This document shows, one piece after another, positions 29,676-50,403 of a stretch of 60,768 bases of DNA (position 1 is the first letter of the stretch; each line of letters starts with the position of its first letter). The position numbers were made by a program, and so were the translations under genes. The stretch lies in IMG/VR virus record IMGVR_UViG_3300045988_117276, one strand, 5' to 3'. Under the pieces are notes generated by a model. That model was given only the letters and a program-made list of their open reading frames with translations. It was not told the origin of the DNA and ran no database searches. The stretch is from a virus.

Positions 29676-30161
29676 TCATTCCTCCTTTTTCTTTTCGTCC
29701 GATTCAAGCTTGGCATCCTTGTCAGCTGTATAAGGATATACATCCATGATAGCTGTTTCTACGACTGAGGGCACCTGATAGTCTGCCATTGTGCCTTTCA
29801 TGCCGGCATCAAGGTTCTTCTTCGCCCGTTCGAGGTCCGAAGCCTGTACCAACACATAGGTACTTGTTTTTTTCTCGGCTCCGCTCTTATCATCCAATGT
29901 GATGTAGCACAGTTTACATTTAAACCAGCGGTCGTCACACTCTGCGTCGCTGGGGAATATCTCGCTATAGTTGGCGCGTTTGATATCAGAGACGGTAAAC
30001 ACTCCGGAGATGAAGGGAGTCGTCTCTTCTATTATCCGTGCTTCCGCCTCCGTGAAGCTGAGAGCATCTACCAGATAAGGTTCAGTCACTTTTTTCTGCA
30101 TTCCGTTTTCAACGACTTTCTCGTAACGGATCTTACATTCAAACCATGTGTGCATTCCCAT
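29676..30161 (-). CDS. DUF4494-type protein, copy A
   Basis: MHTWFECKIRYEKVVENGMQKKVTEPYLVDALSFTEAEARI... About 75-80% identical to 35121..35564. Confidence 0.75.
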   Translation of the reverse strand: MGMHTWFECKIRYEKVVENGMQKKVTEPYLVDALSFTEAEARIIEETTPFISGVFTVSDIKRANYSEIFPSDAECDDRWFKCKLCYITLDDKSGAEKKTSTYVLVQASDLERAKKNLDAGMKGTMADYQVPSVVETAIMDVYPYTADKDAKLESDEKKKEE

Positions 30162-34920: not shown

Positions 34921-35064
34921 TGGAGACGGGGCGATTCGAACACCCAATCAAGGACTAAATCCTTTTGCGCTACTTCCAAGGTTAATTACTCCTTATATCT
35001 CACGTACCGTACTTTCTAACATGTGCACCTCTCGAAAGTCAAAAGCACTCCACTGCGCATCTCC
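34921..35064 (-). ncRNA. Non-canonical tRNA-like RNA no. 1 (144 nt)
   Basis: 7-bp acceptor stem GGAGATG/CGTCTCC. T arm GGGTG-TTCGAAT-CGCCC. A73 discriminator. 19-nt D region. A 5-bp stem begins at canonical position 27 but closes a 17-nt loop containing GUGCAC. The variable region is about 66 nt. Confidence 0.5.
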
Positions 35065-35120: not shown

Positions 35121-35564
35121 CTATTCCTTTGCTTCATAAGGATATACATCCATAATAGGCGTTTCAGACACAGATGCTATTTGATAATCTGCCATCGTCC
35201 CCTTCATGCCTTCGTCTAGCTTCTTGACAGCATCTCTTAAATTGGAAGCCTGAACAAGTACATGAGTAGATGTTTTCTTTTCAGCACCGCTTTTTTCATC
35301 AAGCGTGATAAATACCAATTTGCATTTAAACCAGCGATCAGCCGATTCTTCTTCAGAAAAGAATATCTCCGAATAATTAGCTCTCTTTATATCAGAAACT
35401 GTAAACTCCCCACTGATAAAGGGTGTCATTTCTTCAATACATTTACCTTCACTCTCTGTGAAAGACAGAGCATCAAACAAATAAGGTTCTGTAACCTTTT
35501 TCTGCATTCCATTTTCCGCTACTTTCTCATAACGGATTTTCACTTCAAACCATGTGTGCATCAT
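35121..35564 (-). CDS. DUF4494-type protein, copy B
   Basis: MMHTWFEVKIRYEKVAENGMQKKVTEPYLFDALSFTESEGK... Paralogue of 29676..30161. Confidence 0.75.
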   Translation of the reverse strand: MMHTWFEVKIRYEKVAENGMQKKVTEPYLFDALSFTESEGKCIEEMTPFISGEFTVSDIKRANYSEIFFSEEESADRWFKCKLVFITLDEKSGAEKKTSTHVLVQASNLRDAVKKLDEGMKGTMADYQIASVSETPIMDVYPYEAKE

Positions 35565-37689: not shown

Positions 37690-38402
<713 letters not shown>

Positions 38403-38403
<1 letters not shown>

Positions 38404-38687
38404 CACCTTGCCCATACTGAAACACTTTCGATAGATTTAACAGATTTATCTGAGCACGGAATAATCTCAATTGCATCCAGAATCTCTATCTCTGGAACCG
38501 TAACAGTGAATTTACATTCACCTGGATTAGTCGTACCATTGATCGCTAATTGCGATATGCTAGCAGCACCGTCCCAATACCATAATCTACGACAATTTTC
38601 GAGCTTAACTTCTCTACCATTTCTTTCTACTAACTCTCCAAAAAATACACCGGAATAATTTCCTCTTACAATTACTTTCTTTTTCAT
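38403..38687 (-). CDS. Hypothetical protein (94 aa)
   Basis: ORF coupled to the repeat-protein gene. Confidence 0.55.
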
Positions 38688-39515: not shown

Positions 39516-39758
39516 TTACTTTAACCGGATAACTGAGGTATATCCTGTATATTCAGTTTTTGAGACTCTAAACATTAAGTCTATCTTAGCTTTTAGCTTA
39601 TTAGTCAAGCGTGCCTCACGATTTCTTCTAGCAGCTTCAGACTTAATACCAATGTGACGTGATTCATCGTAGGGAATATTATAGATATCTCCTACTTTCA
39701 TAGCATCAAACACTTTAGTTGTTTGATAGCTTTCATCAATAACGATTTCTTTTACCAT
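39516..39758 (-). CDS. Hypothetical protein (80 aa)
   Basis: ORF 23 nt downstream of tRNA-like RNA no. 2. Confidence 0.5.
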   Translation of the reverse strand: MVKEIVIDESYQTTKVFDAMKVGDIYNIPYDESRHIGIKSEAARRNREARLTNKLKAKIDLMFRVSKTEYTGYTSVIRLK

Positions 39759-39781: not shown

Positions 39782-39861
39782 TGGACAGTGCTGGAGTCGA
39801 ACCAGCCTCACGGATTATTGATGCACTTCACCGTAGTTTCAGCCACGAGACATAACTGCCC
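39782..39861 (-). ncRNA. Non-canonical tRNA-like RNA no. 2 (80 nt)
   Basis: Acceptor stem GGGCAGT/ACTGTCC with G3.U70 and A73. U8. D loop with GG at positions 18-19. A 5-bp stem starting at position 27 closes a 17-nt loop (UGAAGUGCAUCAAUAAU). T arm GCTGG-TTCGACT-CCAGC. Confidence 0.55.
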
Positions 39862-40070
39862 GTTTGCCTGTATCACTTTAGATACAGGGCTTTACATTGA
39901 AATACAACAGATATCAATATTCTCACGAACGACGATATCTCCTTAAAGTATATTTTTATTATTTTCATTTTTCCATTTAAAAAGGGATGCACTATCTTCA
40001 CAGACAATACACCCCGAACACACAAACACAAAATAAAAACACGACAAAACAAAAAGTTTTAAGTAGCTAA

Positions 40071-40232
40071 TTACTCTTCTCTCTCTAGTCTCTTTTTGTT
40101 TTTCTCTATGCACACTTGACACAATGCAAATGCGACAAAAGAAAGCCAAAAAACAACATTAAATTCATTTGCGAACAATATCGTCATGGCAAGAGATATT
40201 ATCCAAATAATAAATAATGGTATACGTTTCAT
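40071..40232 (-). CDS. Possible small membrane protein (53 aa, below the track cutoff)
   Basis: Own translation: MKRIPLFIIWIISLAMTILFANEFNVVFWLSFVAFALCQVCIEKNKKRLEREE. Two hydrophobic helices. Confidence 0.4.
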   Translation of the reverse strand: MKRIPLFIIWIISLAMTILFANEFNVVFWLSFVAFALCQVCIEKNKKRLEREE

Positions 40233-40239
40233 ATTATAT

Positions 40240-40620
40240 ATGTATTAGTTAGTGCCCGCACCTTGATCCGATCAAGACTCACGCAAACAGTGCAACTGTT
40301 CGTGCGGGCTATATATTAACTTACTCACGTTGCTTCCTTCCGCTCATATCATCGCTGGTTGGCTATTACGCTATACTTCGCATCGGCTATACTGCTTATC
40401 TGCGCAGGCTACTTTAACGTGCCCTGAACACGACTTCATTTTTGAGGGTTAAGCCTCCCATCCCGAATTGGGATTCATCGGTTTACCGTTGTGCCCGTAG
40501 CAAATATTCTCTACGTTGATACGGGCTTTTATCCCCCGTCCGACTGGTTTCCCTTACTCACAGCGCTGATTGTCGTAGGTGCTTTATGTCGGATTATCAG
40601 ACTACCTTTTTACGGGTTAT
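40240..40620. other. Non-coding, hairpin- and repeat-dense island (candidate structured RNA or origin)
   Basis: No ORF of 60 aa or more in any frame. A three-way junction at 40254..40309. Hairpins at 40460..40474 and 40493..40526. Competing helices at 40539..40600. GGCTA(T/C) repeats at 40361, 40385 and 40407. The 9-mer CTTACTCAC occurs at 40320 and 40553. Confidence 0.6.
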
Positions 40621-40623
40621 ATC

Positions 40624-49744: not shown

Positions 49745-49938
49745 ACTCTATCCCCCAAAAGAGTTACATTTGTTATGATAACCGGCCTTCTACTTTACCG
49801 GATAACTTAGTGCTTAATAATCAATTAATGTCTCATTTTGTCCTCCTTTCTTAATAAACCTTTTTCCAATGGAAATTGTTATATAAATACAACTTAAACT
49901 TTTCATACCGGAAACGGTCTGTGAAGATAGTGCCGGTA

Positions 49939-50403
49939 TTACCACATAAATAAATTATAACTTACTCCACCACCGACATACAATCCACCGGGATAGCCGT
50001 ATCCAAATTGCAGGCCAAGGCCCCAGCGTTTTTGCTTCGGTTTAAGAGTGATGATTTCCTTTTCTCCGTAGACTTCCATAAAGTCAAGGCTGGGCTTATA
50101 ACCGCTAACTATTGCACGGTAATTATCAGTCTTATACTCCTTGATTGTAATCGGTATAATCACCGGAACCGAGTCGCCTTCTACGGTTCTGTCGGTAGTG
50201 GTATCTACTATTATCGGTAAATACACCGTATCGGTACGCTTTAAGGTCTCCTTTACCGGCATAAGCACGATGTCAACTATAGTGTCCCTTACTCTTATCG
50301 TATCTCCCTTTACATAGACAGTCGAAGGATCGTGCGGATTACAACGCATCCACACGACCACGCATACAAGCAGGCAGACTAATATCCAAGGGAGAGATTT
50401 CAT
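49939..50403 (-). CDS. Signal-anchored protein with a beta-barrel-like aromatic C-terminus (possible spanin/lysis accessory)
   Basis: N-terminal LPWILVCLLVCVVVW. The C-terminus reads GLGLQFGYGYPGGLYVGGGVSYNLFMW. Confidence 0.45.
   Translation of the reverse strand: MKSLPWILVCLLVCVVVWMRCNPHDPSTVYVKGDTIRVRDTIVDIVLMPVKETLKRTDTVYLPIIVDTTTDRTVEGDSVPVIIPITIKEYKTDNYRAIVSGYKPSLDFMEVYGEKEIITLKPKQKRWGLGLQFGYGYPGGLYVGGGVSYNLFMW

What the first reader, a model, noticed from the sequence alone, without database searches (positions are those of the whole stretch)
39782..39861. tRNA-like RNA no. 2 shares the 17-nt-loop architecture and carries tRNA-Ala-type identity marks
The minus strand 39861->39782 reads GGGCAGT-TA-TGTC-TCGTGGCT-GAAA-C-TACGG[TGAAGTGCATCAATAAT]CCGTG-AG-GCTGG-TTCGACT-CCAGC-ACTGTCC-A (80 nt).
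- It has a 7-bp acceptor stem with G3.U70 and A73, the alanine identity set also used by tmRNA.
- It has U8, GG at positions 18-19 and a perfect T arm.
- A 5-bp stem at position 27 again closes a 17-nt loop, and only 2 nt separate it from the T arm.
- The loop core GUGCAU is complementary (with one G.U) to the GUGCAC of element no. 1. A loop-loop kissing interaction between the two RNAs, or dimerisation of no. 1, is therefore conceivable. This is speculative.
- It lies 23 nt upstream of gene 39516..39758 and just 3' of a hairpin (39867..39888).

Two independent loci with the same deviant design argue for function rather than decay.
Basis: seen in the sequence. Interest (0 to 1): 0.7.

Follow-up and report, generated by a model that had tools for sequence, protein, structure and literature searches.

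The report
Phage tRNA mimic with invariant big loop
This 80-base stretch encodes a tRNA-shaped RNA that cannot read codons, and it belongs to a large, apparently undescribed family carried by gut phages of two bacterial phyla, all with almost the same 17-base loop where the anticodon loop should be.

Summary
Window 39861->39782 (minus strand) folds as described: a 7-bp acceptor stem with G3.U70 and A73, a perfect T arm, and a 5-bp stem closing a 17-nt loop.

It is not an ordinary tRNA. ARAGORN and Rfam do not call it, and ARAGORN's intron mode only forces an implausible 'Ile(AAT)' model.

It is also not decay. More than 170 viral contigs and 15 bacterial genomes carry the same element, one copy per locus. 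The hosts are Bacteroides, Parabacteroides and Tannerellaceae, and also the Clostridia Frisingicoccus and Herbinix. Acceptor, D-type and T stems keep pairing through compensatory changes.

The loop is nearly invariant (UGAGGUGCACCAAUAWU). The window carries a rare variant (GAAGUGCAUC).

G3.U70/A73 is kept in 28 of the 44 unique sequences scored, almost all from Bacteroidales phages. The Clostridia-type members have A-U or G-C at 3:70.

Best reading: a tRNA-derived, non-decoding RNA. The tRNA body probably serves processing, stability and perhaps alanylation. The conserved, self-complementary loop is probably the working surface, most likely as a decoy or binder for a tRNA-recognising factor. 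The partner is unknown.

Kissing with element no. 1 is not conserved.

No such family was found in Rfam 15, in INPHARED, or in the paper searches.

The parts
39782..39861 (-). Whole tRNA-like gene (80 nt; 5' end G1 = 39861, discriminator A = 39782; no CCA encoded)
   Evidence: Sequence read. Covariance model R1 scores it 101.6 bits. Related copies were found.
39855..39861 (-). Acceptor stem, 5' strand GGGCAGU (G3 = 39859)
   Evidence: Pairs with 39783-39789. Pairs 4:69, 5:68 and 7:66 show compensatory changes in relatives, while G3.U70 is kept in 22 of 33 aligned sequences.
39836..39851 (-). D-type arm: stem GUCUC (39851-39847) / GAAAC (39840-39836), 6-nt loop GUGGCU with GG (39846-39841)
   Evidence: Covariation G-C<->A-U at the outer pair and U-A<->G-C at the fourth pair. 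The word GUGGCUGAAAC is shared with phage and host tRNA-Ser D arms.
39809..39835 (-). Arm in the anticodon position: stem UACGG (39835-39831) / CCGUG (39813-39809) closing a 17-nt loop
   Evidence: 99.4% of cells are paired. The series A-U -> G.U -> G-C occurs at the second pair. RNAalifold predicts the stem independently.
39814..39830 (-). 17-nt loop UGAAGUGCAUCAAUAAU (family consensus UGAGGUGCACCAAUAWU)
   Evidence: A loop-agnostic scaffold search gave 170 of 172 loops of this type. The window's variant occurs in 4 other contigs. The consensus contains the 8-nt palindrome GGUGCACC.
39790..39806 (-). T arm GCUGG-UUCGACU-CCAGC
   Evidence: 100% paired. Three of five pairs show compensatory changes. 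The T loop UUCGAYU is invariant apart from position 66.
39782..39789 (-). Acceptor 3' strand ACUGUCC (U70 = 39785) plus discriminator A73 (39782)
39867..39888 (-). Hairpin CCUGUAUC-uaaagu-GAUACAGG, 5 nt upstream of the 5' end
   Evidence: Arms change compensatorily in L003, L004 and L033. A hairpin ends within 10 nt of the 5' end in 27 of 41 distinct contexts, against 18 of 41 after shuffling, so the enrichment is only modest.
39984..40060 (-). GU-rich tract plus terminator-like hairpin with conserved loop UUGUCUGUGAAGAUAG and a U run, about 120 nt upstream. Probably the end of the preceding small transcript or ORF. It recurs upstream of family members in Bacteroidales phages.

Best explanation
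**What it is (about 0.9).** Window 39861->39782 encodes an 80-nt tRNA-derived RNA that keeps the tRNA 'top half' and elbow:
- a 7-bp acceptor stem and a 5-bp T stem
- the UUCGAYU T loop
- a GG-containing D loop
- U8

In place of an anticodon arm it has a 5-bp stem capped by a nearly invariant 16-17-nt loop. It belongs to a family found in temperate Bacteroidales phages and prophages and in phages of Clostridia.

**How it most likely works.** The steps below are inferred unless marked as shown.
1. It is transcribed inside the early leftward operon. No Bacteroides-type promoter of its own is evident.
2. RNase P cuts at G1 and leaves the upstream hairpin as a protected 3' end for the preceding RNA. 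The 3' side is then trimmed and CCA is added, since none is encoded. The product is a stable L-shaped RNA.
3. In the Bacteroidales clade, including this copy, G3.U70 plus A73 allow charging by AlaRS, which does not need an anticodon (about 0.5).
4. It does not decode (about 0.8). There is no 7-nt loop and no U33, and no triplet keeps a fixed anticodon-like setting.
5. The loop is the working surface. It is single-stranded and held constant across two host phyla (shown). In the consensus it carries the self-complementary GGUGCACC; the window has GUGCAU. Its centre, G-UGC-A-Y, looks like a tRNA-Ala(UGC) anticodon loop with G in place of U33.

**Proposed function.** The RNA probably acts as a decoy or high-affinity ligand for a conserved factor that recognises tRNA. 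The likeliest partner is a tRNA-directed host nuclease or other tRNA-handling enzyme of the translation or quality-control machinery (about 0.3). The tRNA body would provide maturation, stability and docking. The partner has not been identified.
For: **Not an ordinary tRNA**
- ARAGORN finds 0 genes and Rfam has no gathering-level hit.
- The best sub-threshold Rfam hit is tRNA-Sec, 23.3 bits against a threshold of 47.

**A conserved family**
- 112 copies in 35 unique sequences, rising to 176 copies in 45 unique sequences.
- One high-scoring copy per locus, 70-106 bits.
- 15 bacterial genomes carry it, from Bacteroides, Parabacteroides and Tannerellaceae, and from Frisingicoccus, Herbinix and an Eubacteriales MAG.
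- The terminase next to group-B copies is closest to that of a [Clostridium] innocuum phage.

**Structure under selection**
- 94.1% of cells are paired, against 33-49% for slid controls.
- 9 of 22 pairs have double changes.
- No shuffle out of 500 reaches the observed covariation score.
- RNAalifold independently predicts the acceptor stem, the 5-bp stem and the T arm.

**Loop under selection**
- A search using only the stem and T arm returns the same loop in 170 of 172 hits.
- The first, loop-blind D-arm/T-arm search found the same loop in every hit that was not a conventional tRNA-like sequence.

**Alanine marks**
- 3:70 is G.U in 28, A-U in 13 and G-C in 3 unique sequences. The discriminator is A in 41 of 44.
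- Other deviant tRNA-likes in these phages also carry G3.U70/A73. One is a paralogue in L232 with the same acceptor and T arm and a UGCGCAU loop.

**Treated by phages as a tRNA-class gene**
- Group-B copies sit inside arrays with tRNA-Tyr, Ser, Arg, Ile, Met and Gln.
- L128-type Bacteroides prophages have an array of four anticodon-deviant tRNA-likes.

**Link to tRNA damage and repair**
- An RtcB RNA ligase (Pfam 198-210 bits) lies 2-5 kb from the element in 8 family loci. Seven of them are shown to belong to both clades (4 group A, 3 group B); the eighth, L275, was not shown in full.

**Self-complementarity**
- The consensus loop self-duplex is -17.5 kcal/mol, reached by 0.75% of shuffled loops.
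Against: - No partner was identified.
- An invariant loop across phyla is not what one expects of a decoy for fast-evolving, lineage-specific defence nucleases. A true anticodon-loop decoy would also be expected to have a 7-nt loop.
- G3.U70 is absent from the Clostridia-type members and from one Tannerellaceae copy. Alanylation therefore cannot be essential to the family's core function.
- The window's own loop is a weak self-pairer: -7.8 kcal/mol, reached by 20% of shuffles.
- RtcB is seen in only 8 of about 176 partial loci and is absent from the 60.8-kb window.
- There is no expression, processing or charging data.
- Folding energy of the single sequence is unremarkable.
- The family is absent from 50,697 cultured-phage records, so no experimental system is annotated.
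Confidence: 0.45

Rival explanations
1. Pure processing or 'punctuation' element. The tRNA shape recruits RNase P and 3' processing enzymes to cut the polycistronic early transcript. This separates and stabilises the upstream RNA (hairpin-capped) and gives the downstream mRNA a defined short leader, as in mitochondrial tRNA punctuation or MALAT1/mascRNA.
For: - The element is intergenic, on the coding strand, 23 nt before the next ATG and 5 nt after a hairpin.
- Element no. 1 and the different cassettes that replace it in relatives all end ...CCA-C-ATG, exactly at the RusA start codon.
- No promoter of its own was found.
Against: - Punctuation needs only the acceptor/T half, yet the loop is the most conserved part.
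- The same element sits in ORF-free tRNA arrays, where there is no mRNA to punctuate.
- The downstream gene differs between relatives.
Confidence: 0.15
2. Trans-acting RNA displayed on a tRNA scaffold. The loop would base-pair with another RNA in one of three ways: with itself (a DIS-like kissing homodimer), with element no. 1, or with a host RNA such as the tRNA-Ala(UGC) anticodon loop or the 16S 3' end.
For: - The consensus loop carries the 8-nt palindrome GGUGCACC (-17.5 kcal/mol; 0.75% of shuffles reach this).
- In the window, the element 2 x element 1 duplex (-11.6) beats either self-duplex.
- GUGCA is complementary to the U34-G35-C36-A37-C38 segment of a tRNA-Ala(UGC) anticodon loop (sequence reasoning).
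- GAGGUG..CCAA can pair with the 16S 3' end (-15.8).
Against: - No target within the phage window exceeds shuffled loops: best -15.6, against shuffles reaching -17.9.
- rRNA hits are within the shuffle range, which reaches -22.6.
- Loop position 35 (G in the consensus) varies (G, U or A) with no compensating change at position 42, which stays C. Two loci have GUACAC, which breaks the palindrome.
- The element-1 slot holds unrelated cassettes in relatives.
- Palindromy does not explain the conserved flanks UGA and CAAUA.
Confidence: 0.15
3. A genuine decoding tRNA. Either the oversized loop still presents a triplet, or a short intervening sequence is removed by an endonuclease and RtcB to give a normal anticodon loop.
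For: - It sits in arrays with real tRNAs.
- RtcB, the ligase used in protein-catalysed tRNA splicing, is encoded nearby in both clades.
- ARAGORN intron mode outputs a model.
- ARAGORN calls the Herbinix copy 'tRNA-Thr(ggt)' through an alternative fold.
Against: - Removing any contiguous 10 nt from the loop never leaves a loop with U33 (enumerated from the sequence).
- The ARAGORN intron model needs a U.U stem mismatch, a non-canonical intron site and anticodon AAU, and in variants the anticodon would change.
- The Thr(GGU) fold has 3 Watson-Crick pairs in the consensus and A at position 33. It also conflicts with the compensatory A28-U52 -> G-C change that supports the 5-bp stem.
- There is no bulge-helix-bulge motif.
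- The window reads in the standard code with long ORFs.
Confidence: 0.07
4. Alanyl-tRNA-like ribosome rescue or tailing factor. This would be a minimal tmRNA-type molecule, or a donor for RqcH-type alanine tailing or for another Ala-tRNA-dependent transferase.
For: - G3.U70/A73 is conserved in the Bacteroidales clade.
- There is no anticodon.
- The loop contains UGC-A, as in tRNA-Ala(UGC).
Against: - There is no conserved reading frame or stop codon in the loop: UAA is lost in the commonest variant (..CAAUAUU..) and in ..CAACAAU...
- There are no pseudoknots.
- The Rfam tmRNA model does not hit it.
- The alanine marks are missing in Clostridia-type members, which have the identical loop.
Confidence: 0.05
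5. A DNA-level site rather than an RNA. Candidates are an attP core derived from a tRNA gene, a dif-like or operator palindrome (GGTGCACC), or a homing-endonuclease target. A further variant is a decaying tRNA pseudogene.
For: - The most conserved segment runs from the stem to the 3' end, as in tRNA-type att sites.
- There is a palindromic core.
- The element lies in the regulatory region near a divergently transcribed gene. That gene's homologues in related contigs carry a LexA/CI-type S24 peptidase domain.
Against: - The 5' acceptor strand and D arm covary with their partners, which only an RNA structure explains.
- No real tRNA has this loop.
- The same sequence occurs in phages of two phyla, whose host tRNAs differ.
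- It is not next to an integrase in any context examined.
- A pseudogene would not be kept in more than 170 contigs with compensatory changes.
Confidence: 0.04

Closest known systems
Canonical bacterial or phage tRNA-Ala(UGC)
   Same: - 7-bp acceptor stem with G3.U70 and A73
- U8, GG in the D loop
- 5-bp T stem with a UUCGAYU loop; 12-bp acceptor/T coaxial stack
- loop centre G-UGC-A-Y resembles UUUGCAY of real phage tRNA-Ala genes seen in the same data set
   Different: - 17-nt loop instead of 7, and no U33
- 5-bp D stem with a 6-nt loop and no nucleotide 26
- 2-nt variable region
- below the Rfam tRNA threshold, and not called by ARAGORN
tmRNA tRNA-like domain
   Same: It is a non-decoding RNA with an alanine-identity acceptor stem and a T arm.
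   Different: - No tag reading frame, no pseudoknots and no long helix leaving the junction
- 80 nt against about 350 nt
- The Rfam tmRNA model gives no hit here
Viral or cellular tRNA-like processing modules (MHV68 vtRNAs/TMERs, MALAT1 mascRNA), from general knowledge
   Same: - tRNA-shaped and non-decoding
- expected to be cut out by RNase P/RNase Z and given CCA
- coupled to neighbouring hairpins or upstream RNA
   Different: - Those are eukaryotic or herpesviral and are not aminoacylated
- They lack a conserved effector loop
- Here the family is bacterial-phage borne and the loop is the most conserved part
Bacterial Y-RNA-like YrlA (tRNA mimic encoded next to rsr and rtcB; Chen et al. 2014, PMC4201824, abstract seen; operon detail from general knowledge)
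   Same: - A tRNA-mimicking non-coding RNA, also found in phages
- Genomic association with the RtcB ligase
   Different: - YrlA is circularly permuted relative to this RNA: its ends form the Ro60-binding stem
- No Ro60/TROVE gene was seen in the neighbourhoods examined
- No Rfam Y-RNA hit
HIV-1 dimerisation initiation site (loop GUGCAC or GCGCGC), from general knowledge
   Same: A hexamer or octamer palindrome is displayed in a hairpin loop flanked by purines. It is physically able to form a kissing dimer.
   Different: - Different scaffold and biology
- Dimerisation is untested here
- The palindrome is weakened in the window's own copy
Engineered 'tRNA scaffold' for expressing small RNAs (Ponchon and Dardel), from general knowledge
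   Same: A cargo sequence replaces the anticodon loop of a tRNA body, which provides processing and nuclease resistance. The variable cassettes in the element-1 slot look like the same principle.
   Different: This would be a natural example and is not proven. The cargo is only 17 nt.

Membership tests
tRNA (Rfam RF00005 / ARAGORN definition) | Cloverleaf scoring above the family threshold, with a 7-nt anticodon loop and U33 | tested here: not met
   - ARAGORN finds 0 genes.
- There is no Rfam gathering hit.
- At a permissive E-value only tRNA-Sec appears, at 23.3 bits.
- The loop is 17 nt and the residue before every candidate triplet is not a conserved U.
tRNA (Rfam RF00005 / ARAGORN definition) | Acceptor/T-arm minihelix (7+5 bp), T loop UUCRANY, GG in the D loop, U8 | tested here: met
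tRNA-Ala identity set | G3.U70 wobble pair plus A73 | tested here: met
   - Both are present in the window.
- G.U occurs in 28 of 44 unique family sequences, alongside covarying neighbour pairs. A73 occurs in 41 of 44.
- Actual charging by AlaRS cannot be tested here.
Intron-containing tRNA (archaeal/eukaryal type) | Bulge-helix-bulge motif, or an intron 3' of position 37 whose removal gives a canonical loop | tested here: not met
   - No contiguous 10-nt deletion gives a loop with U33 (enumerated from the sequence).
- The ARAGORN -i model is non-canonical: an 8-nt 'intron' after position 32 and a U.U mismatch.
tRNA-Sec (RF01852) | 8/5 or 9/4 acceptor/T arrangement, long variable arm, UCA anticodon | tested here: not met
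   - 23.3 bits against a gathering score of 47.
- The alignment drops the variable arm and treats 17 nt as a loop insert.
- Only the long D stem and small D loop are Sec-like.
tmRNA (RF00023) | tRNA-like domain plus tag ORF with resume and stop codons, and pseudoknots | tested here: not met
   - No Rfam hit at this locus.
- No conserved frame or stop in the loop variants.
- Length is 80 nt.
Y-RNA-like YrlA | Ends paired into a Ro60-binding stem; encoded next to rsr (TROVE) | tested here: not met
   - The ends form the acceptor stem.
- No TROVE protein was found among neighbours scanned with Pfam.
- RtcB is nearby in some loci.
New family defined here (model R1) | tRNA core plus stem YRYGG/CCRYG closing the loop UGANGURCAYCAAYA(N)U, followed by 2 nt and then the T arm | tested here: met
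   - The window scores 101.6 bits; the window sequence is part of the seed.
- Relatives score 70-106 bits, one per locus.

The most novel reading that the evidence does not exclude
Gut phages of at least two bacterial phyla carry a dedicated class of non-decoding tRNA mimics. These would be matured, and in Bacteroidales phages alanylated, by the host's own tRNA enzymes. Their invariant, self-complementary 17-nt loop would then do one of two things. It could dimerise in a DIS-like manner, or it could capture a universally conserved tRNA-recognising component, such as the anticodon loop of tRNA-Ala(UGC), an anticodon nuclease, RtcB-linked repair, or a ribosome quality-control factor. That would make them RNA-only effectors that reprogramme or protect translation during infection. 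The interchangeable tRNA-like cassettes at the neighbouring slot would be further members of a natural 'tRNA-scaffolded cargo RNA' system.
Probability: 0.25. Interest if true: 0.85.

Novelty: new variant of a known kind. Interest (0 to 1): 0.66.

Why it matters
- Phage tRNA genes are usually explained by codon supply or by escape from tRNA-cleaving defences. A widespread, strongly conserved tRNA-shaped RNA that cannot decode points to a further use of the tRNA fold by phages.
- The family is abundant in human-gut viromes and in prophages of cultivable Bacteroides, for example B. xylanisolvens XB1A and B. acidifaciens. It is therefore directly testable.
- Standard annotation does not report it, and in some relatives mislabels it as 'tRNA-???' or 'tRNA-Thr'.
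- It offers a compact natural example of a functional RNA loop displayed on a tRNA scaffold.
- Its clade-specific retention of the AlaRS identity pair allows a clean test of whether aminoacylation of a non-decoding RNA has a biological role.

Tried and rejected
- **Ordinary tRNA via an alternative fold.** ARAGORN default, intron and low-threshold modes, plus the Rfam tRNA clan, were tried. Only forced models came out. Rejected.
- **Mini-tmRNA.** The frame GAG GUG CAC CAA UAA exists in some copies, but the stop is lost in the commonest variants. Rejected.
- **Antisense target inside the phage.** An RNAduplex scan of both strands of the window found nothing better than shuffled loops.
- **Pairing to rRNA.** E. 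coli 16S, 23S and 5S were used as a proxy for conserved regions. The best hits were the 16S 3' end (-15.8) and 23S 814 (-17.8), both within the shuffle range. Not supported. Bacteroides rRNA itself could not be fetched.
- **Kissing with element no. 1 as a conserved mechanism.** Rejected, because the slot is occupied by unrelated cassettes in relatives.
- **Shine-Dalgarno mimic (GAGGUG).** Weakened by G35 -> A or U variants, including the window itself.
- **Shared neighbouring protein as partner.** Clustering ORFs from 30 representative loci gave no protein common to both clades except RtcB, an HNH endonuclease and spurious antisense ORFs.
- **Cultured phage relatives.** None in INPHARED for either clade consensus. 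The window region itself has only weak hits.
- **Literature.** Four full-text searches found no description of this family. One further search attempt failed on an invalid term. A catalogue of 10,006 candidate viral structured RNAs mentions unnamed tRNA-like candidates (PMC10690425), but its supplement is not held.
- **Rfam on the 380-nt ORF-free stretch upstream.** No hit, and folding z = -0.54.
- **attP or dif-like DNA site.** Considered and rejected on the covariation evidence. The scans of 42 window ORFs found no integrase.
Full report
**1. The observation.**

GGGCAGU-UAU-GUCUC-GUGGCU-GAAAC-UACGG-[UGAAGUGCAUCAAUAAU]-CCGUG-AG-GCUGG-UUCGACU-CCAGC-ACUGUCC-A

All the listed features are present:
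- a 7-bp acceptor stem with G3.U70
- A73
- U8
- GG in the D loop
- a perfect T arm
- a 5-bp stem closing a 17-nt loop
- a 2-nt connector
- 23 nt to the ATG of ORF 39516..39758
- the hairpin 39867-39888 just upstream

Single-sequence statistics are unimpressive. The T-loop word occurs at chance frequency and the folding z-score is -0.84. However, a scan for a T arm abutting a 7-bp acceptor closure finds only this element and element no. 1 (35064->34921) on both strands of the window.

**2. Standard tools do not make it an ordinary tRNA.**

- ARAGORN calls nothing in the window.
- Rfam 15 has no gathering-level hit.
- With permissive thresholds, the best Rfam hit is tRNA-Sec at 23.3 bits against a threshold of 47, with the 17 nt treated as an insert.
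- ARAGORN in intron mode reports 'tRNA-Ile(aat)'. That model needs an 8-nt intron at a non-canonical site and a U.U mismatch.
- No contiguous 10-nt deletion from the loop yields a loop with U33.

**3. It is a member of a large, conserved family.**

*Finding the family*
- An exact 25-mer from the 3' half found 8 viral contigs with three sequence variants, whose flanks are much more divergent.
- A loop-blind pattern (D loop ... T loop) returned mostly tRNA-Ser genes plus further relatives, all with the same loop.

*Size and distribution*
- In all there are 176 copies in 45 unique sequences.
- A covariance model built from 33 unique sequences (R1) finds one strong copy per locus at 70-106 bits. 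Only ordinary or deviant tRNAs score below that.
- A scan of one genome per species found the element in 15 genomes. These are Bacteroides xylanisolvens XB1A, B. congonensis, B. timonensis, B. acidifaciens, B. muris, B. bouchesdurhonensis and others, Parabacteroides and Tannerellaceae, and also Frisingicoccus caecimuris, Herbinix and an Eubacteriales MAG.
- Neither clade consensus matches any of 50,697 cultured-phage records.

**4. Structure and sequence constraints.**

On the 33-sequence alignment, the cloverleaf-like structure has these properties:
- 94.1% of cells are paired, against 33-49% when partners are slid.
- 9 of 22 pairs have changes on both sides.
- No shuffle out of 500 reaches the observed covariation.

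RNAalifold independently predicts the acceptor stem, the 5-bp stem and the T arm.

Covariation selects a 5-bp D-type stem (positions 11-15/22-26, with a central C.A mismatch in the window) and a 6-nt loop containing GG.

The loop is the most conserved part. A search specifying only the stem and T arm returned 172 hits, and 170 have UGA[G/U/A]GU[G/A]CA[C/U]CAA[U/C]A(N)U. The window's UGAAGUGCAUCAAUAAU is a rare variant, found in four other contigs from different samples. It differs from the consensus at two positions (G35A, C41U).

**5. Two clades, two contexts.**

*Group A (GGGCRGN.../...NCYGUCC-A).* This group includes the window and occurs in Bacteroidales phages and prophages. It sits in the early operon downstream of a conserved 85-92-aa gene. 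Nearby is a divergently transcribed gene whose homologues in related contigs carry a LexA/CI-type S24 domain.

The window itself is a siphovirus-type genome. Its early operon encodes an exonuclease, RusA, a KilA-N protein, two DUF4494 proteins, a C5 methylase and a PAPS-reductase-like protein, followed by the terminase and portal genes.

*Group B (GGAAAGN.../...CUUUCC-A and relatives).* This group lies inside arrays of ordinary tRNAs (Tyr, Ser, Arg, Ile, Met, Gln), upstream of terminase and portal genes. Its terminase is closest to that of a [Clostridium] innocuum phage. That fits the Clostridia genome hits.

The two clades share the loop, its stem, the AG connector and most of the T arm. They differ, with compensation, in the acceptor and D arms.

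**6. Alanine marks.**

- The 3:70 pair is G.U in 28 unique sequences, A-U in 13 and G-C in 3.
- The discriminator is A in 41 of 44.
- CCA is never encoded.
- Within group A, pairs 4:69, 5:68 and 7:66 change compensatorily while G.U stays. That argues for selection on the wobble pair itself. One Tannerellaceae copy has G-C.
- The loop centre (G-UGC-A-Y) resembles the UUUGCAY loop of bona fide phage tRNA-Ala genes in the same data set.
- A paralogue in a Parabacteroides prophage has the same acceptor and T arm, with a 7-nt loop UGCGCAU. ARAGORN calls it tRNA-Ala(cgc), with G at position 33.
- Several other deviant tRNA-likes in these phages also carry G3.U70/A73.

Alanine identity is therefore real for this clade, but it is not a family-wide requirement.

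**7. What the loop might do.**

*Self-pairing.* The consensus carries the 8-nt palindrome GGUGCACC. Its self-duplex is -17.5 kcal/mol, reached by 0.75% of shuffled loops. The window variant is weak, at -7.8 kcal/mol and 20% of shuffles.

*Arguments against pairing as the whole explanation.*
- Loop position 35 (G in the consensus) varies without compensation at position 42, which stays C, and two loci break the palindrome.
- No complementary site in the window exceeds shuffles.
- No E. coli rRNA region, used as a proxy for conserved segments, exceeds shuffles.
- There is no conserved reading frame.

*Element no. 1.* The window's element 2 x element 1 duplex (-11.6) is better than either self-duplex. 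However, relatives that keep element 2 carry unrelated tRNA-like cassettes in the element-1 slot. That interaction therefore cannot be the conserved function.

**8. Hints from context.**

- A hairpin usually lies 4-8 nt upstream. The enrichment is modest: 27 of 41 contexts against 18 of 41 after shuffling. In close relatives its arms covary.
- The commonest Bacteroides prophage type has an ORF-free array of four anticodon-deviant tRNA-likes. Their loops are a 6-nt loop, a 39-nt insert, a GAUA tetraloop, and this family's loop.
- An RtcB RNA ligase (Pfam 198-210 bits) is encoded 2-5 kb away in 8 family loci. At least seven of them are spread over both clades (4 group A, 3 group B). Among about 120 unrelated loci there is only one weak match.
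- RtcB is not present in this window.

Together these observations place the element in a tRNA supply and repair setting.

**9. Interpretation.**

*Shown*
- The element is a conserved, structured, tRNA-derived RNA gene that lacks a usable anticodon loop.
- Its oversized loop is under stronger purifying selection than its stems, in phages of two phyla.

*Inferred*
- It is matured by RNase P, 3' trimming and CCA addition.
- The Bacteroidales clade can be alanylated.
- It does not decode.
- The loop is an effector surface on a tRNA scaffold. I favour a decoy or ligand role toward a conserved tRNA-recognising factor (about 0.3).
- The rivals are a pure processing role, loop-loop or antisense pairing, true decoding after splicing, tmRNA-like rescue, and a DNA-level site. 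The last two are poorly supported.

**10. Comparison and novelty.**

- It works like known tRNA mimics: the tmRNA tRNA-like domain, YrlA, the herpesviral vtRNAs and mascRNA.
- It fails the defining tests of each of these families, and of tRNA, tRNA-Sec and intron-containing tRNA (see the membership table).
- No Rfam 15 family, cultured-phage record or paper in the searchable library describes it.
- I rate it a new variant of a known kind, namely a phage-borne tRNA-like RNA. It has above-average interest for three reasons: its abundance in gut phages, its cross-phylum invariant loop, and its testability in cultivable Bacteroides lysogens.

Noticed in passing
window 40015-39984(-), 39939-39910(-), 35098-35071(-), 49905-49940(+): Four hairpins share the loop motif G-U-Y-Y-G-U-G-A-R-R-A-U-A (for example UUGUCUGUGAAGAUAG). 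The exact 14-mer TTGTCTGTGAAGAT occurs twice. The first hairpin is preceded by a GU-rich tract (40060-40017) and followed by a U run, and it gives a weak Rfam match to the Bacteroides sRNA MasB/BTnc201. The motif lies within 250 nt upstream of the family element in 28 of 41 distinct Bacteroidales-phage contexts and 0 of 19 group-B contexts. Its function is unknown; it could be a terminator, a nut/put-like site or a protein-binding site.
   Followed up: partly
window 34921-35064(-) and the same slot in L033, L004, L044/L082, L003: Element no. 1 is a 144-nt tRNA-like RNA. Close relatives have quite different tRNA-like cassettes (98 to about 190 nt, some with G3.U70) at exactly this place. All follow the same motif hairpin, and in four of the five relatives shown the cassette ends ...CCA-C-ATG at the RusA start codon. 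This looks like an exchangeable cassette slot.
   Followed up: partly
window 40253-40309(-), within the ORF-free stretch 40240-40623: A 57-nt structure, GCCCGCA...UGCGGGC, encloses two hairpins. The homologous region in L031/L044 has a compensatory closing stem, GCCCUAC...GUAGGGC. There is no Rfam hit, and folding of the whole 390 nt is unremarkable.
   Followed up: partly
window 40071-40232(-): An unlisted 53-aa ORF (MKRIPLFIIWIISLAMTILF...) looks like a small membrane protein. Homologues directly follow the tRNA-like element in L091 and L147.
   Followed up: no
L128 4860-5760 (same array in L230, L234, L236-L239, L241: Bacteroides genomes): This is an ORF-free array of four tRNA-like genes with abnormal anticodon arms: a 6-nt loop, a 39-nt insert, a GAUA tetraloop, and the 17-nt-loop family member. 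Three of them pass the Rfam tRNA threshold.
   Followed up: partly
L232 2179-2261(-): A paralogue has the same acceptor stem and T arm as group-A members. It has a 7-nt palindromic loop UGCGCAU (Ala anticodon CGC, G instead of U33) and a 13-nt variable region.
   Followed up: partly
L161 188-1450, L130 3997-5205 and six further loci: RtcB RNA ligase genes lie 2-5 kb from the element in phages of both clades. None is present in the window.
   Followed up: yes
window 38100-38411, inside ORF 37690-38415(-): There are about 15 tandem copies of a 12/18-nt unit within a coding region, giving a repetitive protein segment.
   Followed up: no
window 29676-30161(-) and 35121-35564(-): There are two DUF4494 paralogues (Pfam 205 and 214 bits). 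One lies immediately upstream of element no. 1.
   Followed up: no
L228 3366-3447, L098 11836-11929: ARAGORN mislabels family members in some genomes as 'tRNA-Thr(ggt)' or 'tRNA-???(ga)' through alternative folds. Public annotations may therefore contain such calls.
   Followed up: yes
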